Both the position numbers and the translations under genes were made by a program. 64,000 bases of DNA from Bispira polyomma (taxonomy: Eukaryota). The notes beneath the pieces were generated by a model that was given only the letters and a program-made list of their open reading frames with translations, searched no databases and had not been told where the DNA came from. Below, in pieces: positions 14,779 to 58,070 of this stretch (the stretch's first letter is position 1; each line of letters begins with the position of its first letter). The stretch covers positions 69,068,001 through 69,132,000 of the forward strand of contig OZ287753.1 of the NCBI GenBank assembly GCA_965649765.1. The letters run 5' to 3'.

Positions 14779-15725
14779 AGATAAGTTCATATATAATGTT
14801 ATACTATGATGAGCACAACAACATAAAACTTGTTTCTCTACTGATAATGCCTATTTACCTGTTAAAAACAGCTTAAATATCAGTAGCTTACATCCCTATT
14901 TTATGTCATGTATGCGATTACATGTATACTAATGTTGTTTCATTCACAGCATATATCAGCTGTATTAGGACTGGTCACACTATCCACGATGTAGTGGAAC
15001 TGTATAAAAGAATGTTGGCGAAGCAACAGTCGCGTTCAGATTTATTAAAATAATAGGAAACCTAATCACGTGATAAATTTCATCTGTAGTTTAATCCAAA
15101 ATGATTTCTGGGAAAACTTGTCTGGAACTGCAACGATAAGATCATAAAGGTATTGGGAATATATGGCAATCATGGAGATTTCATGCATTGAGAAGGGAAA
15201 CGGTTATTCTGTAAGCTATTCGACTGAGAATTGTTGCTTTTGCAATGCGAAAATTAGAACTTCTGAGAACAATTACGACAGTAAGAGGTAATATGATAAA
15301 AAAAATATATATATAAATATATAAATGTGAAGAAGAAATGCTCACAGACACAAATTTTGTGCCCGTCTTGCTCTGACGTCCGAATAACTAGTATATAAAC
15401 CCTCAAGATGCAGTTACGTGACCTCAGAACCAGGAGAACTGTAAAGGTGTGCATACATTTCTGTGACTGGATTTCAGTGCTAACGTTTCATATTTTTATA
15501 CTAGTGATTACTTTTGCGTATTCTGTACAATTAATAAACCTGCAATAAATATAAACACTATTGTTAATATGTATAACAAATATGGTAGAATGGAGAATAA
15601 AATGTTAAACCCCATTGTGTCTTTACTGTGTACTTAATATAGTGGGGGTGGATGACTGCTGAAACAAATTTTAAAAAAATATATAATTACAATTTTGTAA
15701 AATAGGCCTTCTGTTGCGACATATA

Positions 15726-18700
15726 TAGTTGGGTCATTTACAGTACTTCCGTGACCGTGGACAGCGAAGGTTCGTTTCTCAAAGAATTTGTCTTCTATAA
15801 AGGATAAATAAAACATGTAGCCCCATGCCCCTCGCAAAAATGCGGGCTAAATACGTGAGAGCTGCAAATCCAAAACGGCCACCCATAGCTATTTTTAATA
15901 TGATCTTTTTAATGGTTTGGCCTACAATGCTGCAAGAAATTCATATTTGATGTTTTGATAATTGACCTATTTTTGACCTTTAAATCTAAGATGGCTGCCA
16001 ATTTTCCACTCAGAAAGCTTAATTTTTCAAAGTCATCATAAAACCTTCATAATAGGCTCTAATGAAAGCTATTTGTATGTGGAGTTGTGCTATAGACAGT
16101 AAAAGTATAAGTAAATGCATAAAGGTCATATCAGAGGTCAAAAAGATTAATGTTTGTTCATAATCACAAAATCACTGGAGATAACCGAACAAATTGTATG
16201 TATTTGAATAAATTTGACATGTATATATACACCAATATTCACTTACTTTAGGGAAGTACAAGGTATTGAGCCTCAATTTACAACCTAACATTAATTAGTT
16301 TTGTAACTAATGGTCATTACTGGATACTGGATTACTGGATCATTACTCTTCATCTGAATCTGTTGATTCTCCACATTCACTCCACTTATCATCACTACTA
16401 CTGTCACTCTAATTCGCAAGGTGTGAACTGCTGGATCAAGGGGTGAGGGTGTAGGGCACTTGTCAGCACTTTCCATTCAGATTTGCCATCAGTGATGAAC
16501 AGCTCCTCCAGAATAATGCAGCATGGCTCTCTAAGAACATCAAGAACACATCTACTGTCCCCTGACTACCTCAAATGGATCATCTTTAAGAAGTGGAAGA
16601 GGTGTGTGAGTTGCTTAAAAAGTTGTTGTCTTTGCTAAAGCCTTCTAGGAGAAAATATGCTAATCTAAGCCACACTACAGCCAGCATTGCCTTCATGATC
16701 ACCTACCACATCACAAGATAGCCCACTGCCACTGTTATTAACCTGGGTGTAAATGTCCATGGTATGACAATGAGTAAAGATCTGGTAAAAAACTCGATGC
16801 ACAAGAGTGGTATCTACATCAGTTAAGCAGACATATTAATCCTCTATTGGGCTATGAAGAATGTTGAGGCATCAAGAACTTATCCTCCAGACATTGCAGA
16901 TGATGAGCCAGCTATTGTGATTGTCAACAATGACGATTTCAAGATCGGTAGTATGACAGTCGATGCATCAGGAGTTAATCGAACAAATGTCATGTTTGTG
17001 CAGCCATAGAGCTATGAAAAGAAACCAGATAAAGAGACTGATGCAAGGCTGATCAAGAACAAAATATCTGCGCAGCTGAAGCAAAAGTGTGCAGAGCTCA
17101 TACAGGTTCACCAGTACAGATCTCAACCTGGCAGCAAGAGTGAGCCACCAGCTCTTCCCGAGATAGACCCACCAGTAAATGGCACAGCACCACAGCGTGC
17201 ACAATCTGTGATACACACACTTTCTTGTGCAGACGATGATGGCACAAGACCACTACCTCAGGAGCCATATATCACACAACAAGAGTAAGCCCTACTGCCA
17301 CACAACTGATCGTGTCCATCAAACAAGTCAGTAGTGCATGGAATCATGGTTAAATTTGTGGCTGCTATGCACAAGAATAATATTCCATTCTACTTTCTGG
17401 TTAATGACATGCCCATCAAAAAGATGATCAAGCAGATTAGGGCAGAGAATCTGGAACTGTTTAAGGACATCATCCCAAATATTGGTGCATTCCACTAGCT
17501 ACATCTATGCTATCTACAACAGATTCAAAGGCTCCGGCATTACAGACACTCTGGTTACTGCAGGAGTAATAGTGGAGGGGTGTGTTGACCAAGCACTATG
17601 AGGAAAGAACTACAGACAGGTGTGTGCTGTATCCTGCTGTGGAGAACGGCCCTTATCCAGAAACAACTGAGAGGGACCCTTGAACATGAGGAACTATCAA
17701 AGAACATCAAGCAGAACCTTACAGTGATCTTCAGAATGATGTTGACATGAAAAAACTAATCAATAAAGTTTACCAGAAACCTGGCACAGACTTTGGGGAC
17801 TTTTGGATTTCATTCCTGGAGATATCAAGCTCTCTTGTCTACAGTATTGATGCATGTTATGCAAGAAATGGCCGTGGGTACTTATCATCAACATACAGCA
17901 TGTTGCCTGGACTGGTGGCATATGACAATCATAACTATAGGAAGTGGTTGCTTGATTATTGGCCTTCTTTAACAATGATTTCATCAGTCGACGACACACT
18001 ACGAGACTTCACCAGGCACTAGACCTTTGCATAGAAACCACTAAGAATTTGAACTCCAAGCTTGAGCAATGGTTGGTTCAGATTATGCAAAATGAGAAGC
18101 AACTGTTCTCACGAACAAGGACTGCAAACAACATTGCAAGGGTGGGGATTACTGTAAATCAGAAAATTAAGAGCCACCATTTCCACAGAAAGCATGTTGA
18201 GTGCCAGCAAGCAAGGATAAAGATGAGCAGGCAGTTCAGAACCTGCAGAAATGCATGAATAATTTTAAAGCGAATCCCTTTGACATCCCCTCATCTGCAT
18301 CAGGTCACTACAGTCTGGCCTGGTCGCCTCACCAGATTTAGTGTGTGACTTCCAGATCCCAATTGAAGATGGTCAAGCTTAGGGTGAAATCAGCCTGCAC
18401 GATCACACCTCTCACTGCACCCATCCACAGGAATAGGAGATGCTGGTGAACACATCTGTGCACCACCTTGTGTATCCATATAGGTTGCCCACATAGAAAG
18501 GCTGAGACTTGTAGCTCTGGTTGAACTTGTGGAGGCTTGATCAAACTGGATTTAGGCCTTGAGAGTTGAGTCACTGAGCAGTGTCTTTTACTCTACAATG
18601 CACATAGTTTCTTAATTGCAGTAGTTAAGTCGGCTCCTGACAAGAGCATTTGCAAGGACTGTTGAAGTCAAACAAGTGGCGTATCCTATACAGGTCTGTA

Positions 18701-19962
18701 ATGTGGATTTGAGTTGACTTAGTGACTTGGGATACATGATCTGAGAGAGCCATATTGGAATCAAACACTACCCCTAGATTTCCGAGAATGTCAGTAAGAA
18801 AAAAATGACTGGCAGTGACTAACCATCAGGGTTCTATGGGCATGGCAAAAAGTCAGTGTTGCAGAATGCAATAAAATATCTTGAGGAAGGAGAGCTTCTT
18901 AGATGAGTCGAGAGTCTCTAGTTAAAGAAACAAGTCACAGCTGATATGAAGGGATTTGGCCTTTCCCCAAGTCTATGCTGAGAGGGCAGATGTTACTTGT
19001 GGGCAGGCCATACCTTCCAAGTGGCACTCATTGATGAAAAAGAGTAAAATCCACCTCCCACCTGATGATGACTCCTTAAATCTCCATATGGAAAGGACTG
19101 TCGATGTTACATATTGCCAGCTACATTACAACCTATTAGAGCATCCTTTCCCCATTGGCCATGGTTAGAATAGTCTGAATGGAAATTGCTGACCAGTGCA
19201 TCACGCCCTGACCCCAGTAGTTTACACCTTGCGACTGTTTAGATGAGAGTGACCATGACAATAGTAGTAAGAATGAGAGGAGTGAATGTGGAAAATCAAC
19301 AGATTCAGATGAAGAATATTGATCCAGTGATGACAATTAGTTACAAAACTAATTATTGTAAAGTTGTAAATTGAGGCTCAATACATTGTACTTCCCTAAA
19401 TAAAATGAATATTGATGTATATATACATGTCAAATATATTTAAATACATAGATTTTGTTCAGTTATCAATGATTTTGTGATCATGGAGAATGACAGTTCA
19501 GTTCCAACCACAAACATTAACCTTTTTGAACTCTGATATGACCGTTATGCATTTACTTATACTTTTACTGTCTGTAACACTCAACATGAACAGAGCTTTC
19601 ATTAGAGCCTATCATAAAGGTTTTATGATGACTTTGAATAATTAAGCGTTCCGAGTTGAAAATTGACAGCCATCTTGGATTTTAAAGTTTAAAATAGGTC
19701 AAATCATTTAAACATCAAATATGAATTTCCTAGAAAATCCTAGAAATTATGTACTATGTAGCATTGTAGGCCAAACCAATAAAAAGGTTAATTTTCAAAA
19801 TGACTGCCGGCGGCCCTTTTTTTAGCTCTCATGGATTTAGCACGCATTATTGCGAGGGGCATGGGGGCTAATATTTTTTACTTTACCTTCATAGAAAACA
19901 AATCACTCAGAAATGCACCTTCACACTCCATGATCACGGAAGTACTGTAAACGGCCCAACTA
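15726..19962 (+). mobile_element. Degenerate Academ-type DNA transposon with long inverted termini and TATA TSD
   Basis: Ends TAGTTGGGTCATTTACAGTACTTCCGTGA... / ...TCACGGAAGTACTGTAAACGGCCCAACTA, flanked by TATA on both sides. Transposase remnants NNDDF, MLPGLVAYDNHNYRKW, LPPDDDSLNLH..HPFPIGHG. Many stops and frameshifts. Confidence 0.8.
18600..18810 (-). mobile_element. L2 LINE fragment nested in the Academ element
   Basis: Minus strand NLGVVFDSNMALSDHVSQVTKS...LYRIRHL. Confidence 0.65.
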
Positions 19963-20339
19963 TATAAGGGTAATAAAATAAAACCTAGACCAGCCAGAAT
20001 ATATGCTAGCATTTTATACCAAAACCCTAAATATTTTTACTTCATAGCAACAAAATGGTCATCTGATGTCCTTTACAATTTTAAATTCTGTAAAAGATAT
20101 TGTCTTTTGAAGTGTAGCTGAACAAAAATGGCTCAAAAGGTTGATTAAATTTCAATATATCGGTGAGTATGGAAGCTAACATTTTTCTACTTGCATTTTA
20201 AATTATATACTTTGTGACTATCTAAATTTAAATAAAATCCATTTAATATTTACGAATATTTTTATTGTTGAAGTAGACACCTCTACCATGTAATACTGAA
20301 TGGTCACCCTTTTAAGCCCAAATTTCATAAAAAATCACA

Positions 20340-23300
20340 CCACACGTTATTATTAAAGGTGAGTGTGGTACCTGAACGAATGAGTGGAAGGTAATATTGG
20401 ACTGGTGTAGTCCCAGTCGGAGAAGAATTTGATCCAAATTAGCCCGAACTTGGGTGTCAGTCATTGGAAGCCAAATTAATTGTTTTTTAAATCAGAAGAG
20501 AGGAAAGTCTCTGTTCCCTGGAGTGATGGCAAGCAAGGCCATAGTTGCTACAACTGGGCAGAGTAAGGAAGAACCTAGGGATGAAATTTTAAGCGCTTTT
20601 GCGACATTTTTGGACTGAAGAGTTATAGACCACTTTATATGGAGACTAGGGGGTGTGAAAATCACTTCACCTCTAGCCAGCTGGACAAGGGGGGGGGAAA
20701 TTGTGGCACAGCATGGCGAACCAGGTGGGGGGTCCTTAAGAATGAGAAGAAGGCTATTAAATACAATGCCTTAAAGACCTGACCCATAAACATATTATCA
20801 CAGGATTTAATGATATCAGTGAGCCGAGGGACATCAATGATTTTTTTGATTTTGGCCCTGAAAGAGCTATTCAGCAAAAGTGACTTTTGGTAATATCTGA
20901 TTCTGGGATCAGAGAAAGCTGAAACATTTAAGCCAAATAAGGCCATTTTTGCTTTGATTGCTGACAGATAATTTGAGATGGAGGAAGAGGAAGCATGGTT
21001 GACTACAAGGACTTCCAGAAATCCTAGTAACATTAAGGGTGAGACAGATTTAATGTTTATATGTGAGAAACAGCAATAAGGGAGGAATATTGGATGCAGT
21101 CAGTAGTGGGTTTATGATCAAAAAAGGCTGTGCCATTGACAGGCAGGAATTTGTTAAACCAGTTTATATCCTGGTGGAACTCAGTGGCTAGTTTGATTTT
21201 CTTGTTGTTGTGTGCTACTATAAGCACTTCTAACGATTTATGAATAGCCGGGAAATTCTGACCCACACTTTCAAACATACAATAGTTTACCCAGTGGTGA
21301 CTGGAGTTCCCTTTTTGTACAACTCTGCTTACTTTGCCAATTTTTAAGTAATGCTATGCTTTCTGCTAGTTTTCTTGGGGGAGTGAAACAGTGAAGTCTT
21401 CCGTGTTCACCAAGACTCCAAGGCAAAAAACCTTGGTACCCGGATATACTATGTTCTTTTGACTAATAGCAAAGCCAAGCTCTTGCAACAAGTGGTACAG
21501 AGTGTCAAATGATTGTTTGCTTTTCGAGGGGCTGCGGTAACCTATGAAGTCATCAATATAATTTGTGACGTCATACCCCTGACGTTTCATGATAAATCTG
21601 ACGCTGTCACTGAGATGCTGAAATATTGTGCTATTATGGCAAAAACTGAAGGGCAGACACGAGTCAACATAGTATTTCTCAAACTTAAGACCCAGGAGAT
21701 TATAATCAGCAGGATCCATTTCTACATGCCGGAACGCGCGACTGATATCAATCTTGTAGATATGAGTACCACGTCCAAGACTGCAAATTTTACTAGTAAT
21801 TGTATCAATTGTAGAGAGTGTTAGCACGCATGGTGTGTCAAGATACTTCTCCTTTGCTACAGCCGTATTAACCGATTCGCCCTGGGGATAACTGAGATAA
21901 ATTATTACCCACGGGGCCCCTGATTTTTTCCTTGTCATGAAGGGGGACACATGTAAATTCTGTATGGGTGCATTATCAAATATCCCTAACATTGCACCAA
22001 ATTCTATCTCCTCTTTCAAATAAGCCTTAATATCCTCTGGATAATCCATGGCTGATTTGTGATTTTGGTCTGTGTGTGAGAGAATACTAGTTCGATTGAA
22101 ATCTATAGGGAAACCATTTCTGCTAAGAAAGGGTAACTGAATGTCCCAGTAGTTAACTAGATATTTTTCCCAGACATCAGGTTTCAGTTTTGACTTAATC
22201 TCAATTGGAGGGCCTATAAAATTAGGACATTTGGCTGCACTAACTACCTCATGTAGTTGGGTTAATGATGCTTGTGAAGTGACTCTTTTATCTGAATTAG
22301 GTACCTCCAATTCACCAAGTAGTATAAACCCGTATTTGTCTGTGGTTTGTGAATTCCATTGTTGGAATATGGGGACATTATGAGCTTCTCATATGGTGCC
22401 CCTATTTTTGGGCCTTACCTGAAGTTCCAAGTCATATTTATCCACCTCCGCAGTTTTTTAGTTACCTAGGGACAATATGGGTGGACCCTTGTGATTGTCT
22501 TTACTATGTTTTTTGCTTTCTCTCACACAATCACAGCTTTCACAGGGGTTTGTTTGTACAAGAGTCCCTTTGTCAGTATAAATACCGTCGCCAACAGAGA
22601 GGGGAGAAAACCTGTTGTATGTGGGGACCAATTCATTGACACCTTCCATGAAGTGTGAAGGGAGAAAGAGGGGCTTTGTGTGACTGTGTTTTTTGACACC
22701 TTTATCCCCATCCCCTTTGTGGTTAGCCTTAATTGGTTTTCCCTTTTCATCAGGTTTCACTCCTACTTTCAGGGGAGGGCCCATGGTTTGAGTTTTACCC
22801 CTGGTAACCATTTTGGTTACCTGCTGTCTGACAACATTGTCAGTTTTCCCTGAAAGTTGTGCAATACATGCATGGTTAGTACTTTGATTAAGAACACCAT
22901 TGTTCTTCTGTGATACTTTATACATGGAAACATTTACAATAGAATTGACTTTTGTGTACTGTGCACTGTTACTTGTTTTGCTATTTTTTAACATTTCCGC
23001 ATATGTTTTGTTTTTAAACCTAGCCCAGTCCGTCCTCCAGTGCACACATTTGTATCCAGTATACATATCTATCACTAGACATTGTCTGCTTTTTAACACT
23101 ATTTTCTCTATTGTGTCCATTGTTTATAATTCTAACGTTAACACACCCAGTATATTTTGACAACGGCACTGCACTACTGCAGTGCCCTACTAGTTTTTTA
23201 CATTTTTCTACAATTCTTTGCCGGATGTGGGAAGGATCACCCAGTTAATATGCAGTTACTGCATACATGCAAGTACATGGTTCCTCTGGTGTCGTGGTCC

Positions 23301-23384
23301 GCTTTTTGGGGGCAAGTACCCTTTTGATAGAACCTACATGCAGTACCTTTCTCATGATTTCTCTTAGAGGGGCCTTACGTTTGA
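20340..23384 (-). mobile_element. Older Ngaro/DIRS-like YR retrotransposon, 3' part (gag end, RT, RNase H, YR), degenerate
   Basis: RT ORF 21366..22310 (KIDISRAFRH, NYIDD); RNase H-region remnant 21057..21278; YR 20400-21033 (LYLIAFFSFLR, IKWS, LCPV); gag Zn-knuckle at ~23210-23384. Confidence 0.85.
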
Positions 23385-23388
23385 CTAT

Positions 23389-23665
23389 CTTCATCACTGC
23401 CACGAAGTAGCATGGCTAGTCAGCCGCGGAAATGCTATACTTTACTGTACTTCTATTTTCAAAACTACTTGCTTATCACAGTCACTTCTCACCCCAATGC
23501 TGCATTCAGATAACACCTCCACTCTCCTCGGCGTTTCCCACCTTTCTTATAATCTCACTGATAAGTCAGAAGACAAATCTCTCTTACTCTCCCCAGCGCT
23601 TTCGCGCCCTTTCTATGATAAGCTCATTATTAAGTCAGAAATCAAACTAACAACATCAAAAATCT
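23389..23665 (+). repeat. Split direct repeat A1
   Basis: Near-identical to 29043-29319. Confidence 0.95.
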
Positions 23666-23812
23666 TAAGATATCAGCGGCCATATTGGAAATGTTTATAC
23701 ATTATCACTAAAAATCCAATTGCCTGCTTAAGTGTTTATTATTTTACAAAATTACACACAGAGGATAATATTGTGCATCTTTTAAGTTAATTTGTGTGGA
23801 TATTACTTAAAA

Positions 23813-25032
23813 ATGGGTAGAAGAAAAAAGAAAAACTCTATTGAAACAGCCTCATGTACTAGATGTGAAATCTTCCACACACGATCAGTAGGAAATCGCT
23901 GCAAACGAACCGCAGACACAAGAGATGATGATCTTCTCCAGCCTAGCTTTGATAGTGATGATCAAAGCAGTGTTTCTGAAGCAAGTGGCCAAGTTAGCAG
24001 TGAAAAATTCTATCGTGAGGCATACTCCACACAGCAGAATATGATGGAAACCCTGTTATCTACAGTCTCCAAGCTACAAGAAGACGTCTCAGATCTCAAA
24101 TTTGGAAAGATGGAGACCAACCGTGTGTCGCCTCATAACGTACCCCGAGATCTTCACATTTCACTAGGACTTCATGACGGTCAGAGAGATCACACTGCCA
24201 GTGCGTTCACGACTCATCCTCTCGCTACAGATTCTCCTTCATGTCACCTCACTAGTTCACAGAGCCGGTATGATCACGAAGCCACTCAACGTGCTCTCAA
24301 AGATACCATTCTCCCGACTCCCGAAGTGCTGAAGCAGTCGTCCCTCATACAGAACGAGGTCTCCAAACGACTAACGAGATATGAAGCCTGGGCCACAGAT
24401 GAGAGCATTCAAGGTAAGCTCACTACCAAGCGAAAATCTGGGTGCTATAATACCTCTGAATTATGTGTATCTGACCCCATGAAGCGGTGGCCAAACGAGG
24501 CCTGCTTATCTGGTGTTAACAAAAAGCATGTATCTTTTGATGAATTGTCAGTCTCACAGTTCGCTGCTGGCCAGATCCAAAATATTCTTGAGGTTAAGAA
24601 TCCTGATATTTCACGAGCCATGCTCTCCCAACTAGCAGACACCCTCAAAGACGCCTCCAACATCTCTTGGGAGATCGCTCGTGGCGCCTATGCCAGTAAT
24701 ATGCATGATATTGAAGAGGGGTGTTTGAGTTGGATCAATGACACAAAATGGAATATGAATCGGCTTTCTTATTCTCAAGCCCTCATATCCAGTACTACCA
24801 CACCTTCGACCAGTTCGTTTTCTGCTTCATCTTCAAACAAAAATGAAATGCCTTGCAGGCGTTACCAAACAAATGACTGCCAACACCAGAAAGATCACAA
24901 GGGCAATAACATTACATTCCGACATATCTGTGCCAACTGTTTCTGAATCAACAAGAGAATGAACCCACATCCCGAGTCGAAATGTTTCAAGTTACACGGG
25001 CACCCAAATGCGCCCGCGAACACCCCTCAATA
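23813..25032 (+). pseudogene. Ngaro gag-like ORF (one premature TGA at 24944-24946)
   Basis: MGRRKKK...CTRCEIFH..GNRC; WEIARGAYAS; C-terminal CRRYQTNDC..H..HICANC*...HPESKC knuckle continues in frame after the stop. Confidence 0.8.
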
Positions 25033-25458
25033 GGGACGCGGACTGCCAGCAGACACCACAGCTACTCACCTTAAGTCCACTTCTGATGTCGTTATTAACC
25101 ATTGTGTGCTGACAGGAAGTTGTGATTTAACCAGTAGTACTAATAAGCAAATTTGTAAGAAAAACAGTTTTAAGAATGATTTCATAAATAATTTTAGTTA
25201 TCACCTCAATGAGTCAATTACTCAATTGAGTTATAGTGATGCCAGTAAGACATCTCAAGCATTACCTGGCAGTGTTTCCCTTAATGACTTATGTAGGCAA
25301 GAATTGCCTGTTAAATTGAACGTTATGAACTCTGTTCAGTGTGATAATAATGGTCAAAAACCATCAGCTGTCTTTCATACAGTAGACGTTTATATTAGCA
25401 CCAGTAATTTTAAGTCTGATTGTCTAACTCATTGCTATATCGTTTGTCATGATGAGTC

Positions 25459-27853
25459 ATGTATTTCAGGTGTATACAAATAGATTATGGCCAAAATATG
25501 TGGTACTTACAACAAACCCCCTATACACTGGATCACATATGGCCATTATCCTATGTGAACACCAGTTGTGCCACAACACTACATCACACTCAACCAAATC
25601 AGTCAAAAAATCGTGCAAAACATAATGTGGCACATACACACACAAAAATTGGACAAACTTTCTATTATACGGATATCATTGACAAGATTTGCAAATCAAA
25701 TTTTCAACACCAGAGCAATTCAGATTGTAACCATCAAGCCCACTTACCCCTTGAGCATCAAATTAATCAAGGTAATACACTAGTGCATAATGACATGGTT
25801 ATGAGTCAAAAACCTATATTAGTGCATAATGAAACGTCTATGATTCAAAAACTTACATTAGTGCATAATCAAACTTCTAGGATTCAAAAACCTATATTAG
25901 TGCACAATGATACTTCTATGATTCAAAAACCTACATTAGTGCATAATGAAACTTCTATGATACAAAAACCTATATTAGTGCACAATGAAGATCCTATTAT
26001 TCAAAAACCTACATTTGTGCATAATGAAGACGTCATGATTAATGACATTTTACCACTTCAATCATCAGACACTAATGTGGACAATGTCAAACATGAATCC
26101 TTTCTTATTTCTGGGGACAGAGCGTATGATTTCATACCACACAGACAGAACAGCTTTAAATGTGTGGGCCCAGGCAGACAAGAAGTTCTTATAAATTCTT
26201 ATGACAAACTCATTGAGATTGCAGACATTGTTAAGAACTCTGGATTTCCCAACTATAAACAAGCCAGAATACCACTTAAGAGCAACCTCAAAGTGGAAAA
26301 TTGGAAGAAATACCTGACAGATTATCCTGACAACATCATATTACTATATATTGAATTTGGTTTTCCAATTTCATTGTATGATAGAGATAGACTGACAGTC
26401 AAAAATGTTAAGAACCATTACTCAGCAAGAACTTTTCCAGAAGCTGTGGACAGATATTTTGTCACAGAACTCGAACGAGGCACCCTAGTGGGCTCAGCTA
26501 CTTCTGACCTTACCCTGATATACACTGCTCTCCACTTTTGACTGTACCTAAAGACACTGACAAGCACCGTCTTATATTAAATCTTTCTCACCCAGCAGGC
26601 TACTCTGTCAATGACTGCACCATTAAGTCAAAGTACGACACAATCGACTTCACTTTGAAATTATCCGCCATTGACCAAATAACTCACAAAATTATGGACA
26701 TAGGACCTAAGGCGACCTTAGCAAAGGTGGACGTTGCGCACGCATTTAGGAACCTAAGAATAGATCCTTATGACTGTCTGAAGCTGGGTTATATATGGAA
26801 AGAGCAGTGTTTTATTGACTTAAGTCTGACTTTTGGTCTCAATCATGGTACTGCTGCTTTTATGATGACCTCAGATTGTGTTACTTACATCATGAAACAA
26901 AAAGGTTTCACAGTTATGAATTATATAGACGATTTTTTACTCATAGAACACGAAGATAAGGCCACCTTAGCCTACGAAACTTTACAACAAATACTAACAG
27001 ACTTAGGTCTTCCTATTAACCCCAGTAAGTTAGTACCTCCCAGCAAACGAGTCACATGTATGGGCATTGTTATAGACATCTAACAAGAAACCCTCAGTAT
27101 AGATGAAGAAAAATTAAATTCAATTCACAATACTTGCCTGGAGTTCAAATACCTGGGGAAAGTTCGGAAACAGAAGTACCAGTCGTTACTCGGCAAGCTA
27201 CTGTATATACATCGCTGTATCAAACCATCTCGGATTTTTATGAACAGAATGCTTGCTTTACTACGTCAGTCGACAAGTCGTAAAATTATCATTCTAAATG
27301 GTGAATTTCATAAAGACTTACAGTGGTTCCTGCTTTTTCTAAAGCAGTTCAATGGTACTTGCAAGTACAGTTACTTAAACCAAGATAATGACATTTTATT
27401 ACAGGTTGACGCCTGCTTATCAGGCATAGGGGGCATCTCAGATGACAAAGTGTTCAAGGTTGCTCTCCCTTCTTTCATGACTGACAATTTTTCCATTGTA
27501 CATTTTGAAATGGTCAGTGTTTTAATAGCCTTAAAGCTATGGGGCCATGAATGGGAAAACAAAAAAATTAAGATACAATCTGACAACATGGCTGTGGTGG
27601 CTGTTGTGCAGTCCTCTAAAACCAGAGATGATTATCTCGGGCTATGCCTCCGAAATATATGACAAATCTGTGCTACCAAAAATATTGACTTAAATATCAG
27701 TCATATTCCAGGTAAAGACAATATAATCGCAGATGCGTTATCTCGGTGGTATGAATCAATGCATCATGCTGATTGTGTAAAAAATATTATTACGGGCAAT
27801 TTCGTCATGTATGACGTCCCAATTGACTTATTTACCCTTGACAGTTATATATA
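25459..27853 (+). pseudogene. Ngaro RT/RNase H (frameshift at ~26510, stops at 27081 and 27660)
   Basis: KVDVAHAFRNL, FGLNHG, NYIDDFL, VDACLSGIGG, HFEMVSV, QSDNMAVV, HIPGKDNIIADALSR. Confidence 0.88.
25780..26040 (+). repeat. 39-bp coding tandem repeat (13 aa, LVHNETSMIQKPI), about 6.7 copies
   Basis: Visible in ORF 25459..26541 and as recurring gtgcataat/gtgcacaat. Confidence 0.9.
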
Positions 27854-27860
27854 ATTTCAG

Positions 27861-28843
27861 ACACTCCCTTACTTGCCACTTCACTGGTACAAGACGCCTT
27901 TAGACGTTTAGAATACAGTCACAGACCAAGAACACAGAAACAGTATGACAACCAGTTTCGATTGTTTCTGAGTTTCACAGTTTATTATGACTTAAAACAG
28001 ACTTTTAGTTTCAACAGTATCATAGCTTTCTTTGAATCCTTAACTCAATCAGGAATTTCTCACAAAGTCGTCACAAATTACGTCTCAGCATTAAGACACA
28101 AAACCCAAGTGCTGAACATTCAGACCACTGGGCTTTATGATCCCAGATTACCTTTGTCATTACCTCTATCCTTAAAGATCACTTCCAAGTATATACCCAA
28201 GGTCAAAGGGGTTTTTGACTTAACTCAGCTCCTACAAATCTCTCAAGCATGTGAGCAACTTCAGTATCCTGAGTTATTTAGGACAGCTTTTCTGTTTGCC
28301 TTTTTTGGTTTCTTACGAATATCAAATTTGACCCCCTCTTCAGGTACCCCCTTTGACCCCACTAGACATCTCACAAGGTCAGATATCTTATTTGCTCCTT
28401 CTGGTATTCACTTAATTATAAAATGGTCTAAAACAAATCAGGCTAGGACTTCTCTTGATATCATACAATTACCTTCACTCAGCAATTCTTGGCTGTGTTC
28501 TGTTAGGGCTGCAAAGTCCCTTTTTCAAAAATATCCACTTGGACCCATGGATCCTCTTTTAGCAAATCCTTCAAACACAGGTCTTTGCTTAACTGACAAC
28601 AAGTTAAGATCTATATTAAAACTTATCCTTAATCAGCTAAACATTCCCACTGAAGGTCATTCTTTTCATTGTTTCAGGCGCTCTGGCGCCTCTTTAGCCT
28701 TCAATTCCAACATAAATCTCCGGCACATACAAAAACATGGGTGCTGGAAGTCAGATGCAGTATGGATTTACTTAAAAAATACTTCTCATGCTTCTTCTAT
28801 CATCCCTACCACCTTTGCTTCTATTGTCTCTTCCAAATTTTAG
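27861..28843 (+). CDS. Ngaro tyrosine recombinase, open frame
   Basis: Catalytic set intact: FFGFLRISN (R), KWSKT (K), HCFRRSGA (HxxR), HGCWKSDAVWIY (W, Y). Frame opens at 27842 without an early ATG; acceptor tttcag at 27855-27860. Confidence 0.88.
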
Positions 28844-28850
28844 TTTGGCT

Positions 28851-29319
28851 TTGGCATGTTAAAATTTTAGTTCTTATCTAAAATTTTCTGTATAGTTGTA
28901 CATAGAAGCTCAACATTTATGAACTAAAGATTTATAAATAAATATCCCAAACTGCATCTGACCCCTTACCTTTCAAAACCTCACACACAAGGTCAAACTA
29001 CCATCTTATGACCTTGACCTTAAACTCATCTTATTCGGCTGTCTTCGTCACTGCCACGAAGTAGCATGGCTAGTCAGCCGCGGAAATGCTATACTTTACT
29101 GTACTTCTATTTTCAAAACTACTTGCTTATCACAGTCACTTCTCACCCCAATGCTGCATTCAGATAACATCTCCACTCTCCTCGGCGTTTCCCACCTTTC
29201 TTATAGTCTCACTGATAAGTCAGAAGACAAATCTCTCTTACTCTCCCCAGCGCTTTTGCGCCCTTTCTATGATAAGCTCATTATTAAGTCAGAAATCAAA
29301 CTAACAACATCAAAAATCT
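28851..29319 (+). repeat. Split direct repeats B1 plus A2 (circle-junction equivalent)
   Basis: B1 28851-29042 directly abuts A2 29043-29319. Confidence 0.93.
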
Positions 29320-29414
29320 CCCAACCCTCCTCCCTTGTACATATTTGTAGTATATCTAAGGATTGTGGGTTTAACATTCACTTCTTTGCCTTAGGGCTTT
29401 AATTATTTTAAATT

Positions 29415-29705
29415 GTTTAAGCTATGATTGGTTATTTTTTACCATATTGCTTTATCTTTTATGTTTAGCTATGATTGGTTATATTTACCACCATATTGCT
29501 ACAGTAGCATTTTAATTTTAGTTATCACTGGTTATATTTACCATATTGCTGTACTAGCAAGTTATTTTATTTTGTAGTTATCATTGGTTATATTTATCAT
29601 ATTGCTTTGTTTTCTTATTTTTAGCTGTGATTGGTTATACTTACCATATTGCTACTAGCATTTTATTCTGAGTCATCATTGGTTATATTTACCATGTTGC
29701 TTTGT
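29415..29705. repeat. Degenerate 45-55 bp minisatellite between A2 and B2
   Basis: Core ttggttatatttaccatattgct repeated about 6 times. Confidence 0.8.
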
Positions 29706-29758
29706 CTATGAGTTACCTTACTCTATGTGTTGGGTTTTTTAAACCCTTTACTTGCTTA

Positions 29759-29950
29759 TTGGCATATTAAAATTTTAGTTCTTATCTAAAATTTTCTGTA
29801 TATTTGTACATAGAAGCTAAACATTTATAAACTAAAGATTTATAAATAAATATCCCAAACTGCATCTGACCTCTTACCTTTCAAAACCTCACACACAAGG
29901 TCAAACTACCATCTTATGACCTTGACCTTAAACTCATTTCATTCGGCTGT
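29759..29950 (+). repeat. Split direct repeat B2
   Basis: Near-identical to 28851-29042. Confidence 0.95.
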
Positions 29951-30770
29951 GAGTGTGACCGAAATTCATTACCCGCTGGGCATGAGTCTGCCTGATTCTA
30001 TCGAGTTTATGAGAGTTCTCGCAGGACACCTTCCCCTTTTACATATTGCAAGACAAAACCGCATGACTGCCCTTGGGCGCGCTCCAAGAGAAATCATGAG
30101 CATCCTCTGTGAGGTCTGCCATATATTCTAACATCTGATTTTTAGTTTTTACATTTTGTTCTTCCTTTATAATGTTCAAAAACCAGATACCCATTGGGGC
30201 ATGGTTAAAGCATCATATGTTAATCTGGTGTTGTTATGACCCCCCAGAATAATATTTTTGTGGCCAGGGAACTTGTTTTCTTACTCAGACAGTTACTGCA
30301 TACATGCAAGTACATGGTTCCCCTGGTGTCGTGGTCCCCTTTTTGGGGGCAAGTACCCTTTCGGTAGAACCTACATGCAGTACCTTTCTCATGATTTCTC
30401 TTAGAGGGGCCTTGCGTTTGACTGTGAGTGTGACCGGAATTCATTACACGCTGGGCATGAGTCTGCCTAATTCTATCGAGTTTATGAGAGTCCTCCCAGG
30501 ACACCTTCCTCTTTTACATTTTGCAAGACAAAACCGCATGACTGCCCTTGGCCTCGCTCCAAAAGAAATCATGAGCATCCTCCATGAGGTCTGCCATATA
30601 TTCTAACATCTGATTTTTTGTTTTTACATTTTGTTCTTCCTTGATAATTTTCAAAAACCAGATACCCATTGGGGCATGGTTAAAGCATCATATGTTAATC
30701 TGGAGTTGTTATGGCCCCCCAATTAATATTTTTGTGGCCAGGGAACTTGTTTTCTTACCCAGACAGTGTC
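29951..30770 (-). mobile_element. gag remnant of the older minus-strand Ngaro element, containing a ~475-bp tandem duplication
   Basis: ORF 30220..30504 (SWEDSHKLDRIRQTHAQR...CRFYRKGTC..H..HVCSNC). 30290-30763 duplicates 23253-23388 plus 29951-30289. Confidence 0.85.
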
Positions 30771-36400: not shown

Positions 36401-39400
36401 TTACAGTAAAGTATATGTTTTACAATTGTATGAGAAGAGAAGTTTTTTTATTCCCAAGAGATGCAGGCTGGTACTACTATAACAAAATTCCTATCTTTCA
36501 CTACAAAGTACACATTGATTTTGATAGTAAACAAAACAATAAAAACACACTTTTACCCATTAAATAATTGGGTAACAAGTACATATAACAGGAACGTCCC
36601 CCCCAACAAAAAATAAATAAAATAATAAATTGAAAAAAAAAGATAGCAAAATAATGATACAAAATAGAGATAATAAGGTGTGTGATCCACTGAGTGGACA
36701 GATTTAATTAATATATAATTTGAAATATTTCTATTGCATGTATAAAATACTAGTTAACTTTTAATTTCGGCAATTTTCGTTGTTCAGGGAAACTACATAA
36801 CTTTGTACAAAACAAAAATGTTTACTGAACTATGCATTTTTGTTTTGGGATACTGATAAATTAAAATATTTTGCGCTATTTATGTTAAAAAAGAGAACAT
36901 CTAATGAGGGGAAGTGTTGACCCAAGTCATAACAATAAACGTTTTAAACTGGTACCCCATAGATGGTTAGACTACACAAAATTGCAGTTCTATGCCCCAA
37001 TAAAAAATTACTTTGAGGCAAAATGTATGAATTTTTATTGATAATTCAAAAATTACTGAAGGTGAAATGTCATGAAAATATGAGAAGAAGCTTATTGTAT
37101 TGCGATTATTTTTATTGGGATTGTTGCATCAAAAACCGTTGAGAAATAGCTGAGATATTTAAGTTTAAAATATCGGTAGGGCCTACCATACAAACAAGGA
37201 ACATCCACACTTTATGTACAGGTTTCATGCAGCATTTGCACACTGCGACAAAGACATGTTTATGCTGTATAGGCTACAATTTTAGAATCAACAAGAATAG
37301 CCTTGAAAAGGGCAGGTAGAAGGGGCATGAAGGCCACTTTATGCCAGTGTATTATTAGTTAAGTTTGGCTTTAACTAAAAGTACTCTATCTCCAAATGCA
37401 AGGTAATAGTATGGGAAAATTGCTAAAATAAAAGTATTTAATCACATAAGAAAGATTGTAATGTGTATTATCCGAGATATCTTTTTATTAAACCTCAAGA
37501 GGTGTTCCATCCATTGTTTTGAATTACATGAGACAGATCATAATATGATCTTTAATGGGCTTTTTATTTTGTAAAAAATTAATTCCAGTTTTCCATCCAG
37601 AAGCTATTGTCTTTAATTTCATATTTCTCACATTGACTCAAACCTCACCTTAAAACCTTTCTCAGCTACAATATAATATGTTCTTATTTTGTTAAAGTAT
37701 CGAAAAGCAATTATTTGGCTTCACGATTATATTATTTGAAAATTTGTGTCATCTATACTAAATGATATATGAATACTTAATCACCCCACTATAAGAACTG
37801 GCATTTGTAACACTTTTGGAAATAAAGTCAATACAGCAATTTTACTAAAAATTTTACTAACAATATCTTCAGTACCATTTTATTAGAATTGTAATTAGTG
37901 AAGTCGAAATTGTAGATTACGAATTCATCTAGATACAGCTATTTAATCACTTTCTTGGGGAAATACCATTAAATAAACAAATGGGCCATCTTCATTTCAG
38001 TGACGACGCGTAGCATGGTGGCCCCCAGCTAGCGATCAAGCAAGAAGGTCCCCGACCTAAAAAAATTAGTAAAAATTACATTTTATATCTGCATTTTACA
38101 GCTCAGGATCCGCTGTGCCGGCGCCAGACACAGCTGGTCTCCGATGTTTCCTGATGAAGGACACATTTTGATGTTTAATCAGGACATTCAGCGTCATGAT
38201 GGCCCGCGTATTGAACTATTACAGGTAGCTAGGTATTATAATATTAGCATTGTGTACACTGCTTATTTGGGTATGACAATGTGAAGGCTGCCACTAATGT
38301 CATAAGTACACCATCAGCCAAGTTTTTTTTTTAATCCTATTATTCTGTGGCGGTATTAGAAAAAGGTCTTAAGTCTTAACAGAGAGAAATCTAGTGCAAA
38401 AATATACTAGCTCTAAGACAAAGACTTGGCTTAGTCCTTCTGTGAACACCATCCTGTTGAGACAATTAAATTTTGTTTGCTTGGAAAATATTTCATTCTT
38501 GCCAGAATCAGAAACAAAAATAGTAATTTGTACAGTGCAATGATTAATGAACTAAATGGTTCATATGTACAAAAACTTTGTATTGCTCTACGATTGTGTG
38601 GCGTTTTTTTTTTTCGCTTTTAAAATATAATTTCAGGTTTTTAAATATGTAAATATACTTTTATTATGCCAGAACAAAGATGGTTCACACAAGGTGAATG
38701 TTATGAGTGGAGTATCTGTTGAAGAGCTAATGGACTTTGAACTGAAGAATGATGTCAGTCTTGCTTGTAATGTGATTTTGACCACACCAACCTATGGTGG
38801 CATTGTATCTTTAGGATGTCATGTAAGTTTTGCCATCTATTACCTCCGCCAAAGAGGTCAAGTTTTGTCTGTGTCTGCAAGTTTGTTTTTTTTGTCCCAA
38901 AATAAATGTAATTTGGTAAACTATGGGGCATAAGCCACGAAAGAATCCATTAAAACAAGTAATGTATCCAGGCAGAAGGGCTCTGTGGGACCTTGGCAGA
39001 GATATGTTCTCTACAGCTACTGGATCAGCTTCCAATTTAATAAATAACTAATGATCTATTTTAGCATCATTTTGCATTGATTGGCCAGATACTTCTTAAA
39101 GTATGTTGAAGCATCAAAAGTGTAATACTGAAAATATGTATTTGATAGTGGATTAATTGGGTGCTTAAAATATCAATGTGCATCTTTTTAATTACTGTTA
39201 AGGCAATTCATAGTTAAGTACGTACATCAACACTTAAATGGCTTAAACGAAGATGCATTGTTTTAAATCTTAATGCCATATTATTACCTAAGTGCTGCAC
39301 ATTATCTTATCACAGTACAGTACAAGCATAATATTAATTGACTTACAGGGTGTTGGTTGGGATTGTATGGGTGTGTCAGACTACTGTACACAGATGAGAA

Positions 39401-42400
39401 TTGTAGATTCGTCCGGTGAACTCAGAACATTCCAGAAGAAGGATGACATTGATATGATGCGGGCAGTGCAGTGCAATATGGGACTGTTTGGCATTATTTA
39501 TGACATGCACCTTGAAGTATTGGAAAAGAAGATTGCGCATGTACATGATGACTTCAATTACAATGGTGATTTGTTTTATGATGCCAAGAGGTTAAAGGAG
39601 TTGGTCACGAAAAATGATTCCGTTGAAGTTTTTCATTTTCCATTCAACAGTGTAGGCTGGATTGATGCAGCTGAACAGCTGACGAGGATCATTGGTACAA
39701 ACCAAACTCTCACGAGGGATGAATGGGATCCCAAAAAAGATCAGCTCTATATCCGCCGCATCAACTTCCATGAACCTGAGGATGTTGCAGATAAAGAATT
39801 ATCGTCAGATTCCTATTACAATGCCATGGATGTTCGTACCTGGCTAGAAGCACATAGCCTAAATGTCATTGATAATTTATTGATAAGTTTTCCTCAGGAG
39901 ATAACACCCCTTGTACAAAAGGCTAGTCACAGCTACCTGAGGGAATCAACGGCTGGAATACGGTGGCAACCATTGCCTAATGCAATCCATTACAGGCCTA
40001 ACATAGAACTTTATTCAGTTCATGATATGGAAGTGGCAATCAATGCAAAAGGTGACTTCAGTAATGTCACCATTGCTTGTCAGACAATCTTGGAGCTTTT
40101 GCGACAAGAGGCTGAGAATGCCAGGTTTCCAATAAATATAGCCATGGAGATGAGGTGGATGAAGTATAGCGAGGCATACCTGTGTCCAGCTATAGTTGGA
40201 AATCCGAAAGAAGGGGGATCAGGTCACACATTCTATATTGAAGTACTCAGTTATGCCCACACACCACATTGGAAAGAATTTTCCAGCAAGGTGGCCAAAG
40301 AATTGCTCAAAAAAGTGTCAGGAATACAGTTCCACTGGGCAAAAGAATGGGATTATATAGACGGTGTAGACCAGCATATTAAAAAGGTATGTTTTAATAC
40401 ATAGTCAATTTACCTAAAACTGGTTCATTCCACTTTTCAACGTTATGTTGTATTTAAGACGCTTTGAACATAAAAATGCTTAGAAAAACTTTATATTCTT
40501 GAAATAGAAATATGTATATTGTTTATGATAACACAAATACTCTCAAATGTTTTGAACAGATGTTACATGAAAAACTTAAAACATGAAATCTATTTAATAG
40601 ACTTTAAAGTGGTATTAACCATTGCGTATCTTCTTTTTAGCTATTTTGTCCCATGTCTCTCGTTTTGTAAAAATAATACATAATTCAGTTGGGATGACAC
40701 AGTTATTGTTTATAGTTTGTAATTTAAGGAGGTATGTTTTTCTTCTCTTTTATATTTTATTTATTTTTGCACATTCAGTATATTAATACAAACTTTTTTA
40801 ATTTTTACATTAGCATAAGTAACTCTCGAAACTTTTCTTCAAAATATTAATTTGACTCTTTTTCATTGCTATTTTCTTGTCAATGTGTGAACTATCTCTT
40901 AGAATAAACATAATATCTAGCAGACCCGGCTGTCTGTTTTCCTGTCTACATTTATAAACATAATATGTACCTATTAACATTACATAATTGAGAACACAAT
41001 ACTGCCTTTGGTCCACATTTTATCACTCTTGGAAGTGCATTAACATAAAGGCAAACATGACAAATTAAAATTAATAGATGATTCCAGCTGTTTTACTGCA
41101 AAATTATGTTATCAAAGGAACTACACCCATTAGGCATCAAGTACACTGCAGACAAAGAACTCTACTTATGTCTTTTTATGCGGTTAGTTTTGAGCATTGA
41201 GCCAATCAGAAATGCGGACACAGCTGTGTCAAGTTAGAATAATATAACTAACTTTATAATATAAATAGTTAGAATAACATCAAGCATAAAAAAATCGATT
41301 GTTACAGCCAATATTGTAGAGCCATCTTTTAACTTGGAACCAAATATTTTTAATTATTCTGCAATAGAAAAAACAATGTTCCAAATTATAAACCTGCTTA
41401 CAAAGAAGATTCCTTTTTTTACCATATAAAAAGTTTAAAATTGCAAGCATTCTATTCCATGCAATATTTTGAACTGTAATATGATGACATAAGTATCTTT
41501 CAATACTTTACAGGTTAGTAAGTACACATTGTGTCACTCTAGGGAGTCAAGAAAAAGATAATATTCTACCCATTGATTTTGGCTAGTAGAGATAATATTG
41601 GACCAATCAACCAGTTCATAATAGACTTTAGAATTTTGGACTTTGTTGATATTGTTTAAAATATTACTACATTGTCAGATACTGCTAGTGGGCCTGGTTT
41701 GTGTAGTTTCCTAAACATTGTTGATAAGACACTGATAAGTTTATTCTATTTAATTGCAGGTACATTCATTTCATATTCAATTTGTTTTTGTTTGCTAACC
41801 AAAGTGCCATCAGCTCTAGCAATATAGTTGACATTGGCTAGGCCCTTGGTTTCCTAGTCTAAGTACTCTTTTGAAATAGCTGTTTTGTCTATTTAAATCA
41901 AAAATGTTTTTAACAATCTTTCTTTAAAAAGTTCCTTTATGCTTAGCGGTTTCATTGCAATGAAATCAACCTCACAGCTAACACATCGGCATAAAATTTG
42001 GTCTGAGGTTTTAGCCTTTTTTCTCATTAATATTATGAAGTTAATGCATTCAAATTTTGGACGACTGTGTAAAGTTAAGCCTAACAAGATTTCACATACC
42101 GTGAAATGTATACTTAAACTAAAAATGTTGTTAACCTTTTCCAGAAATCATTGCTAACTTGACAATATTAAAAGTGATGTTCTATTGTAACGACTAGTAA
42201 GCAATAACGACAATTCTGACTATCTGTTATTTTTCCGTTTGAGAAGATTATGTCTGCAGTTGATTATTCTGTATATAACCTAATACTTTACAAGTACGGT
42301 TCCGATATAGTTTTAAATGGTAATGTGAAAGATACAGACGACAAATGATGAGAATAGATACCGGTTTATCTCTATATACAATGATGATGATGAAGATGAC

Positions 42401-57100: not shown

Positions 57101-58070
57101 TTTCAAATCAGAGTTATCCAATCCTGGGTACCTCTGACTAATACTAGAGTATGTTGCCATTTCAAAGATATATTGTCCCGCATGAAACTGCAAGATTATG
57201 GCCTTACCTTACACGCTTTCCAACGTTTAGGTGCTACCTTTGCCTTCAATCATAATGTCAGCATTCAGAACATTCAAAATCATGGCACCTGGACGTCGGA
57301 TTGCGTTTGGAGGTACGTCAATGACACAGTTGACGCTGGCCACCAGGTAGCTGACTCTTTCAGACGTTACCTTTCCACACCTCATCTCCTAACCTACTAC
57401 CTATTTTGGGGTTTGGCTGGTTCTAGTCAAGTAATAATTCTAGTATTTTCAAAAGTATTAATATATCTTATATGCTTGTGTAACATTACATTAACTGGCT
57501 TAGATATATTTATAATTTTGTAATATCTAGCTCTCTTAGTTAATGATAACAGTACCTAGTGACCAAGTGTAATGTAATAGTAATTAATAAGTTAAGTAAA
57601 GTAATAACGTACCTTCAACTTAAAGTTGTGCAAAAATTTAAATGCTACAGTACAGTAGCTATCTAGTCTAATAACTTGTAAAATCACACTTACATAACCT
57701 GTAATAACTAGACGCTGCAGTACAGTAGCTATCTAGTTTCTAAAATGGGTTAATCCTAATTAATTTAAATTAAATGCTTTGGATTTAAGGTCACCTTAGT
57801 TTACACCTCCGTTGGGGTTCTTCTAATGTCAACCTTAAATTAAGTTACTAAGGTGACCTTAGCTAAATTTCTTTATTATCATAAGTATTTCAATAAGTGA
57901 CTTTAAGTCACTCTAAGTAGTAACATTTTAAATTCTGGTTTAAGGTGACCTTAAGTCACTCTGTATATAGTAGTCAACTAACTGTTAGTCTAATAAACAA
58001 ATTTACCGCATTCTGTGTATACCAACCTTGAGTTGTGACCTATGACCCCTGACCTGTGTCAGGTGTTGAA
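54200..58070 (+). mobile_element. Degenerate Ngaro-like element (RT, RNase H, YR; gag missing)
   Basis: KVDISCAFRQV, LPFGYKHGS, NYIDDLL; NTTADLLSRW; FFSFLRLSN, KWSKT, HAFQR, HGTWTSDCVWRY; many stops. Left boundary is approximate. Confidence 0.85.

What the first reader, a model, noticed from the sequence alone, without database searches (positions are those of the whole stretch)
23381..30430. Integration chemistry readable in situ: 4-nt CTGT crossover core with preserved empty site
Seen: empty target ttga-CTGT-gagt (30422-30425, in the duplicated gag); element junction tcgg-CTGT-cttc (29039-29042); right border tcgg-CTGT-gagt (29947-29950); left border ttga-CTAT-cttc (23385-23388, one mismatch). 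This is the attP x attB to attL/attR pattern expected when a circular intermediate is integrated by a tyrosine recombinase, with no conventional TSD. It gives a candidate target core for this recombinase.
Basis: seen in the sequence. Interest (0 to 1): 0.7.

Follow-up and report, generated by a model that had tools for sequence, protein, structure and literature searches.

The report
Ngaro recombinase inserts without shared core
This jumping gene and its sister copies sit at one exact break point with no bases gained or lost and no four-letter match to their targets, so its recombinase likely swaps just one DNA strand at a folded end-to-end joint rather than using the short matching core proposed in print.

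Summary
The four tetramers are at the stated places, around a 6,562-nt Ngaro-type tyrosine-recombinase (YR) retrotransposon (23388-29949) inside the gag of another YR element. In this genome, right ends finish in CTG (99 of 100 per base or better) and the next base is free (T in 28). Left ends begin TCT, preceded by CTG in only 6 of 86. Rebuilt targets read CTGT in 2 of 69; there is no TSD excess; empty paralogues show no length change. CTG^T is the element's own junction, conserved in three families, and this target resembles it partly by chance. Targets prefer G(-5), C/A(-4), T/A(-2: 85 of 86) and A/T at +8/+9, with no donor match at +1 to +6. Only one of two possible strand outcomes occurs (0 of 100 reciprocal) and no permuted copy is seen (0 of 56). 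The break lies at the end of a predicted stem kept by compensatory changes. Best reading (0.5): one-strand, homology-independent exchange on a folded donor, as in integrons. The scan noted this hairpin before on other DNA of this genome.

The parts
23388..29949 (+). Ngaro-type YR retrotransposon, 6,562 nt, order A1-gag-RT/RH-YR-B1-A2-spacer-B2; begins TCTTC, ends CGGCTG
23388..23665 (+). Repeat A1 (4 differences from A2 in 278 nt)
23786..24946 (+). gag-like reading frame with Cys/His knuckle at its end, interrupted by a stop at 24944-24946; no Pfam hit
26508..27857 (+). Reverse transcriptase (PF00078, E 8.8e-10) and RNase H (PF17917, E 0.003); broken by a frame change near 26508-26541 and stops at 27081-27083 and 27660-27662; no room for a methyltransferase before the YR
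27842..28843 (+). Tyrosine recombinase, open frame; R151, K186/K189, H268, R271, W294, Y302 (numbered from 27866) conserved in 90% or more of 119 aligned relatives; predicted Cre-like fold
28851..29041 (+). Repeat B1
29039..29042 (+). Donor junction CTG^T (break between 29041 and 29042); the element's own sequence, not a target core
29036..29080 (+). Predicted single-strand fold: CGGCTG (29036-29041) pairs with CAGCCG (29075-29080) around two short hairpins; the break is at the stem end
29042..29319 (+). Repeat A2
29759..29949 (+). Repeat B2, right end of the element
23383..23387 (+). Left target arm G-A-C-T-A (-5 to -1): fits the family preference G, C/A, any, T/A, any; 23387 is a host base
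23253..23387 (-). Host gag piece X1, left flank of the insertion
29950..30293 (-). Host gag piece Y1, right flank of the insertion
30290..30767 (-). Second, element-free copy of the host gag piece (X2-Y2), holding the empty site CTG^T at 30422-30425; unit bounded by CAGT microhomology
20400..23252 (-). Rest of the host YR retroelement: RT frame 21366-22388 (PF00078, E 5e-06) and a broken YR near 20400-21099

Best explanation
This Ngaro-type retrotransposon family is inserted at a single break, B-end CTG then A-start T, with no obligatory match to the target, and its recombinase likely does so by cutting and swapping one strand only, at the end of a stem that the single-stranded B-A junction is predicted to form. 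Shown: the break point, the free target bases on both sides, no net gain or loss, a weak target preference (G, C/A, any, T/A, any before the break; A/T 8-9 bases after it), one strand outcome only, no permuted copies, a Cre-like YR with its catalytic residues. Inferred: the sense strand is the one exchanged; the catalytic subunit binds the 5 bases left of the break and a partner about 6-7 bases to the right; the donor is recognised as a folded single strand, so that a junction in duplex DNA (the internal B1-A2) is inert; replication or repair finishes the insertion. The CTGT in this window's empty site is a target that happens to resemble the donor junction.
For: Ends: left T1-C2-T3 in 86 of 86 (34 of 34 in the set chosen on the internal junction alone); right C99, T100, G99 of 100, then flat composition at +1 to +7; +1 to +6 match the donor TCTTCG 1.58 times vs 1.49 expected. 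Target bias: -5 G 41, -4 C35/A32, -2 T56/A29/C1/G0 of 86; +8 G 2 of 100, seen in both halves of the sample. At -4 the target avoids the donor's G (6 of 86), which fits protein reading better than base-pair testing. Strand outcome: 0 of 100 right ends are followed by TCTT; a two-strand exchange over a non-matching 6-7 nt overlap with unbiased resolution would leave the donor overlap on the right in about half. Permutation: of 56 internal junctions 52 are ORFs-junction-spacer, 2 undetermined, 2 head-to-tail multimers, 0 spacer-junction-ORFs; a duplex circle has two equal junctions. Fold: z -3.5 for L031, -2.1 for the window copy; the 6-bp stem is kept in two other families with three compensatory pairs (CGGCTG/CAGCCG vs GCACTG/CAGTGC), background 9 of 4,428 CTGT sites; two frequent variants (B -8, A +40) fall in the internal loop. 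Other families: same CTG^T junction, left ends T/A at -2 in 63 of 67 and CTG in 3 of 67 (hand count). [quoted passage not shown]
Against: No biochemical or intermediate evidence; all mechanism steps are inferred from end products. The right-flank signal fits the left-arm matrix in inverted orientation at spacer 6-7 (z 3.9 and 4.2) but equally in direct orientation (-0.52 at offset 5), so a true dyad is not shown. TG at -2/-1 is enriched (18 of 86 vs 4.7; CTG 6 vs 0.8; G at -1 in 31 of 67 in the other families), which may reflect a partial homology check. The fold is weak in individual copies of the third family (z -0.4 and +1.0) and in a longer L032 stretch (z -1.1); inverted repeats also covary if they are duplex protein-binding sites or an RNA structure. 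The YR model is closer to Cre (Z 20.6, rmsd 3.1, 274 aligned) than to integron integrase (Z 17.7, rmsd 3.2, 250 aligned). The DIRS-1 cDNA described in print is the antisense strand, whereas the inferred exchanged strand is the sense one. Three sites differ from their empty family by one base next to the break (window and L050 at -1, L047 at +1), unexplained.
Confidence: 0.5

Rival explanations
1. One reading: attP x attB recombination through a 4-nt CTGT core shared by a circular donor and the target (the published DIRS model with a 3-bp core, extended to 4).
For: The pattern holds at this locus with one mismatch; targets lean to TG and CTG before the break; the 3-bp model is the one in print for DIRS1-like elements (PMC3266345, PMC7192593, passages).
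Against: CTGT in 2 of 69 rebuilt targets; CTG before 6 of 86 left ends; T after 28 of 100 right ends vs 32 expected; clean insertions into unrelated targets with empty paralogues; same result in two other families.
Confidence: 0.02
2. Tn916/Tn1549-like route: a duplex circle, two strand exchanges across a non-matching 6-7 nt overlap, then repair that always keeps the sense-strand version at both junctions.
For: Target signal on both sides of a 6-7 nt unconstrained stretch; Tn1549 integrase works with minimal homology and TTTT-n6-AAAA targets (PMC5871717, Discussion part 1); the YR has the ordinary two-domain fold; one left end (L210) carries 59 nt of B before A1, so covalent B-A joined ends occur.
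Against: Needs fully strand-biased repair (0 of 100 reciprocal products); gives no reason for 0 of 56 permuted copies or for the conserved stem; even the 1-bp match used by Tn1549 is not obligatory here.
Confidence: 0.2
3. No covalent circle: the two ends of a linear cDNA are held together by the B-end/A-start pairing, the YR joins them to a nicked target and host repair completes the job.
For: The stem pairs exactly the 3' end of B with the start of A; it explains 0 permuted copies; DIRS-1 cDNA is mostly linear and its circle junction could not be amplified (PMC7192593, passages).
Against: YR chemistry needs a phosphotyrosine on the B end, which a plain 3'-OH end does not supply (established YR mechanism, recalled); ends are exact in nearly all copies, unlike repair joins; L210 shows a covalent B-A join at a left end.
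Confidence: 0.2
4. The stem is an RNA or reverse-transcription signal (end pairing, template jump) and has no part in integration; the YR reads only short duplex sequence.
For: Wobble pairs favour the sense strand, which is also the RNA (second family T-G pair; A +5 C to T variant in 22 of 142); the junction lies in the 3' part of the transcript.
Against: The break falls exactly at the stem end in three families; this rival leaves the strand asymmetry unexplained.
Confidence: 0.08

Closest known systems
Ngaro retrotransposons (order DIRS; PMC8547959, PMC3783388, PMC4157794, PMC9210276, passages read)
   Same: A1-ORFs-B1-A2-B2 split direct repeats, gag, RT/RH, YR in the same orientation, no methyltransferase, no TSD, solo A-B copies.
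   Different: No structural difference found; the passages read give no target logo or crossover rule for Ngaro.
DIRS1-like elements and the 3-bp circular-junction model (PMC3266345, PMC7192593, passages read)
   Same: YR integration at an end-to-end junction without TSD.
   Different: The model needs an identical trinucleotide in the target, left at both ends; here no target base is obligatory and the junction bases are split, CTG right and T left.
Integron IntI with attC sites (PMC3458562, abstract read)
   Same: Works like it in the inferred steps: folded single-strand donor, one exchange, replicative finish, short fixed motif at the cut with covarying stem.
   Different: Not a member: eukaryotic retroelement, Cre-like enzyme, targets are not att sites, fold is a branched junction; single-strand use is untested here.
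Tn916/Tn1549 integrases (PMC5871717, abstract and Discussion part 1 read)
   Same: Insertion without overlap homology; A/T-leaning arms around about 6 free bases.
   Different: They exchange both strands of a duplex circle and use a 1-bp match at each cut; here only one outcome is seen and no base must match.
Cre recombinase
   Same: Closest solved fold (Foldseek E 8e-09, TM about 0.7; VIA Z 20.6; profile hit E about 1e-3).
   Different: Cre needs a matching spacer and long fixed arms (recalled); this enzyme's targets show neither.
Crypton and Starship YR transposons (PMC13465315, passages read)
   Same: Eukaryotic YR elements without true TSD.

Membership tests
Ngaro retrotransposon | Split direct repeats A1-ORFs-B1-A2-B2 | tested here: met
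   39 loci show the plain full order
Ngaro retrotransposon | gag, RT/RH and YR in one orientation, repeats downstream of the YR | tested here: met
   gag is assigned by position and Cys/His knuckle only
Ngaro retrotransposon | No methyltransferase domain (separates it from PAT) | tested here: met
   RNase H runs to about 27857 and the YR frame starts at 27842; no MT hit in Pfam
Ngaro retrotransposon | RT or YR groups with named Ngaro elements in a tree | not tested
   No named reference was returned (no names among 120 listed)
DIRS1-like | Inverted terminal repeats with internal complementary region | tested here: not met
   No inverted repeat of 25 nt or more in the element
DIRS 3-bp (or 4-bp) junction-homology integration | Target carries the junction core, which ends up at both borders | tested here: not met
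   CTG before 6 of 86 left ends; CTGT in 2 of 69 rebuilt targets
Tyrosine recombinase | R-K-H-R-H/W-Y catalytic set and two-domain fold | tested here: met
Integron-type single-strand recombination | Donor site folds as a single strand with conserved structure | tested here: inconclusive
   Predicted fold and three compensatory pairs; weak in some copies; RNA or duplex-binding role not excluded
Integron-type single-strand recombination | Only one strand is exchanged | tested here: inconclusive
   End products fit (0 of 100 reciprocal) but the reaction itself cannot be observed
Integron-type single-strand recombination | IntI-family enzyme with its specific insertion | tested here: inconclusive
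   2a3v scores Z 17.7, below Cre at 20.6; the insertion itself was not examined
Tn916-type recombination | Two exchanges leaving donor or target overlap at either end | tested here: not met
   Donor overlap is always on the left end, unless repair is fully biased

The most novel reading that the evidence does not exclude
Ngaro recombinases are animal-native, Cre-fold integrases that have independently arrived at the integron trick: they read a folded single-stranded junction (CTG^T at the end of a covarying stem) and paste 6-7 kb scarlessly, by one strand exchange and with no homology, into almost any site of the form G-(C/A)-N-(T/A)-N^, which overturns the short-core circle model for this superfamily.
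Probability: 0.35. Interest if true: 0.8.

Novelty: new variant of a known kind. Interest (0 to 1): 0.5.

Why it matters
How DIRS-order recombinases choose and join their targets has not been tested (PMC7192593 says so for DIRS-1), and the working model needs a short identical core. About 190 ends from one family, backed by two more families, show that Ngaro elements here need no core and give an exact cut position, a target preference and a candidate donor structure. That turns an open question into a small oligonucleotide experiment. If the one-strand reading holds, it is a eukaryotic parallel to integron chemistry and a possible scarless, landing-pad-free integrase.

Tried and rejected
4-nt CTGT core, 3-nt CTG core and 1-nt cores (G or T): rejected. 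TSD: lengths 0/1/2/3 in 52/7/7/3 of 69 vs 44.9/16.8/5.6/1.2 expected from mismatched pairs. Specific targeting of the host element's gag: none of the 27 other host-gag loci among L150-L179 carries the family's repeats, and none of the other 68 both-ended copies matched the host gag. Assembly artefact for the empty site: both borders of interest are in public contigs; a contig across the Y1-X2 duplication joint was not among the listed pieces, so that joint is unverified. Run X1 gave no depth over 29985-30089; a hole proves nothing and is not used. No RNA holder listed. Duplication made by the insertion itself: less likely, host copies differ at 24 of 481 positions against 11 of 469 for the element's repeats (Fisher p 0.04); the L210/L101 copy has no flanking duplication within the DNA held. 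Dyad symmetry of the target: not shown, the direct-orientation control scores the same. Automatic alignment of junctions across families was out of register at CTG, so pairs were counted by anchor instead. Single-sequence PDB search found nothing relevant. Literature: searches returned no Ngaro target-site analysis among the listings and passages seen; Goodwin and Poulter 2004 and Poulter and Butler 2015 are not held and may treat the point; no supplements were read.
Full report
Observation. They bound a 6,562-nt element, 23388-29949, with split direct repeats A1 (23388-23665), B1 (28851-29041), A2 (29042-29319) and B2 (29759-29949) around gag, RT/RNase H and a tyrosine recombinase. The order and the lack of a methyltransferase make it Ngaro-type (definitions in PMC4157794, PMC3783388, PMC9210276, passages read); no tree against named elements was made. 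It lies in the gag of a second YR retroelement on the opposite strand, and a tandem copy of 475 nt of that gag supplies the empty site. The genome is a 1.04-Gb assembly in 75 contigs; that it is an animal is my inference and the wording of earlier notes.

Sample. A search with the internal B1-A2 junction gave 40 scored copies of 629 candidates, fetched with both flanks. Two end patterns gave 194 and 189 matches, of which the first 100 each were listed; 80 of 84 merged new regions were fetched. Ends were called by anchors inside the repeats. Three rows were dropped: a rearranged second A in L079, an internal deletion in L116 and a false match in L125. That left 86 left ends, 100 right ends and 69 copies with both. 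52 left ends come from the second set, mostly found by a pattern that begins with TCTT, so the invariance of the first bases rests on the 34 of 34 in the first set.

The core test. Right ends finish C99 T100 G99 of 100 and the next base is A40 C17 G15 T28, as background. Left ends begin T, C, T in all 86; the three bases before are CTG in 6. Rebuilt targets read CTGT in 2 of 69. No TSD excess is seen. Thirteen copies had a paralogous empty site spanning the break (self-matches of L032, L044 and L049 to their own element set aside); twelve align without a length change at the break and L043 is ambiguous. L084 sits in GGGATT^ATCCTG, the commonest form among the 100 listed of 118 matches. So the element runs from TCTTC to CGGCTG, the break is CTG^T, and no target base is required.

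Why this locus misleads. Targets lean towards the junction: TG before the break in 18 of 86 (4.7 expected), and three or four matches to CTGT in 11 of 69 (3.2 expected). This site is one of them. The left-border A (23387) is a host base at the free -1 position; in the empty copy the matching base is the third position of a His codon of the host gag, so the difference is silent. The two host copies differ by 5.0%, more than the element's repeats (2.3%; family median 2.5% over 36 copies), so the empty site is a diverged sister. A contig of another sample shows an element-free single-copy allele with CTG^T, which confirms that the empty form exists.

What the target does show. Significant after correction: G at -5 (41), C or A at -4 (67), T or A at -2 (85 of 86; p 6e-15), and near absence of G at +8 (2 of 100); +9 is A or T in 84 (p 1e-3, short of the corrected threshold). 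Positions +1 to +7 are flat and do not resemble the donor. The left-arm matrix scores best on the opposite strand at a spacer of 6 or 7, the usual YR spacing, but a direct-orientation control scores as well, so only the position of the second signal is established. Two further YR families, found with the host element's recombinase region, share the CTG^T junction. Their left ends, counted by hand (70 rows, minus 1 junction and 2 duplicates), have T46 A17 G4 C0 at -2, G at -1 in 31 and CTG in 3 of 67. The base after their right-end CTG is A10 T10 C5 G4 in 29 rows (one junction, one duplicate, some rows not verified as ends).

Mechanistic clues. First, asymmetry: if both strands were exchanged across a non-matching overlap, replication would leave the donor overlap on the right end in about half of the copies; 0 of 100 right ends are followed by TCTT. 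Second, a duplex circle would hold two identical B-A junctions and should give permuted copies; 0 of 56 junctions are of that kind. Third, the junction folds with the break at the end of a 6-bp stem (run before the earlier notes were opened), kept across families by three compensatory pairs, with common variants in the loop; the fold is weak in some copies. Fourth, the enzyme is an ordinary YR: catalytic residues conserved in 119 aligned sequences, confident model (pLDDT 89.6), closest to Cre. One left end with 59 nt of B before A1 shows that joined B-A ends occur.

Reading. The simplest account of all four clues is a one-strand exchange on a folded single-stranded donor junction, finished by replication or repair; a junction in duplex DNA would then be inert, which explains the missing permuted copies. 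This is inference (0.5). Rivals are a Tn1549-like two-strand exchange with biased repair (0.2), end pairing of a linear cDNA without a circle (0.2), an RNA-only role of the stem (0.08) and the 4-nt core (0.02).

Comparison with print. The DIRS model has recombination between a 3-bp junction and an identical target sequence (PMC3266345 and PMC7192593, passages), and the YR's specificity is stated to be untested (PMC7192593). Cryptons and Starships show target microhomology (PMC13465315, passages). Integron one-strand exchange is from PMC3458562 (abstract) and Tn1549 from PMC5871717 (abstract, Discussion part 1). PMC8547959 and PMC6681497 (passages) describe the repeats but give no crossover rule. 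Searches showed no Ngaro target-site analysis; two key papers are not held, so novelty in print is not settled. Earlier notes of this scan report the junction hairpin, repeat-less copies and a host duplication on other DNA of this genome; one of them pointed me to PMC3783388. They are not counted as support.

Verdict. Observation confirmed; interpretation partly supported, with the core rejected. A known kind of element with a well-measured insertion rule that departs from the published model and is directly testable. Interest 0.5.

Noticed in passing
window 23253-30767; run X1 record 1: A 294-nt contig of sample S1 runs from the unique DNA left of X1 through four differences from X2 (three listed, all X1 alleles) and then matches 30365-30546 exactly: an element-free, single-copy allele with CTG^T. 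It arises either by crossing over in the 49-nt identical block of the two X copies or the assembled tandem is a mosaic of two alleles.
   Followed up: partly
window 23387; L050; L047: Three filled sites differ from their empty family by one base next to the break: G to A at -1 (window; L050, where A is in 3 of 100 listed family copies) and G to T at +1 (L047, T in 1 of 100 listed). Chance or junction repair; sample too small.
   Followed up: partly
L210:8639-8697: A left end with 59 nt of repeat B in front of A1, that is an intact B-A junction at the 5' border.
   Followed up: partly
L055; L102; many loci of L070-L149: Head-to-tail multimers and half copies (13 A-spacer-B, 10 A-ORFs-B) fit unequal crossing over between A or B repeats. 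In the two other families most 3' ends seen are B1 followed by flank.
   Followed up: partly
window 25776-26048: 39-nt in-frame tandem repeat (13-residue unit) upstream of the RT.
   Followed up: no
window 29403-29705: Degenerate 47-56 nt tandem repeats in the A2-B2 spacer, each with a GATTGGTT-like motif that is a reversed CCAAT box (recalled label).
   Followed up: no
window 27842-28843: The YR frame has no ATG near its start and is preceded by ...tttcag; earlier notes of the scan propose a spliced Gag-YR fusion. The third element has the same ...tttcag before its YR (about 56400).
   Followed up: no
window 55226-57420: A third, degraded RT/RH-YR retroelement on the + strand (PF00078, E 1e-07); ends not located.
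   Followed up: no
window 15722-19966: A DNA-transposon-like element with long inverted repeats (about 760 nt, 76% overall) around a broken reading frame.
   Followed up: no
window 5803-7398 and 39292-40740: Two 89% identical copies of an exon with an ALO (arabinono-lactone oxidase) domain, part of a local duplication.
   Followed up: no
L047 and L055: Two independent copies sit about 33 nt apart, in opposite orientation, in the same repeat family (963 pattern matches).
   Followed up: no
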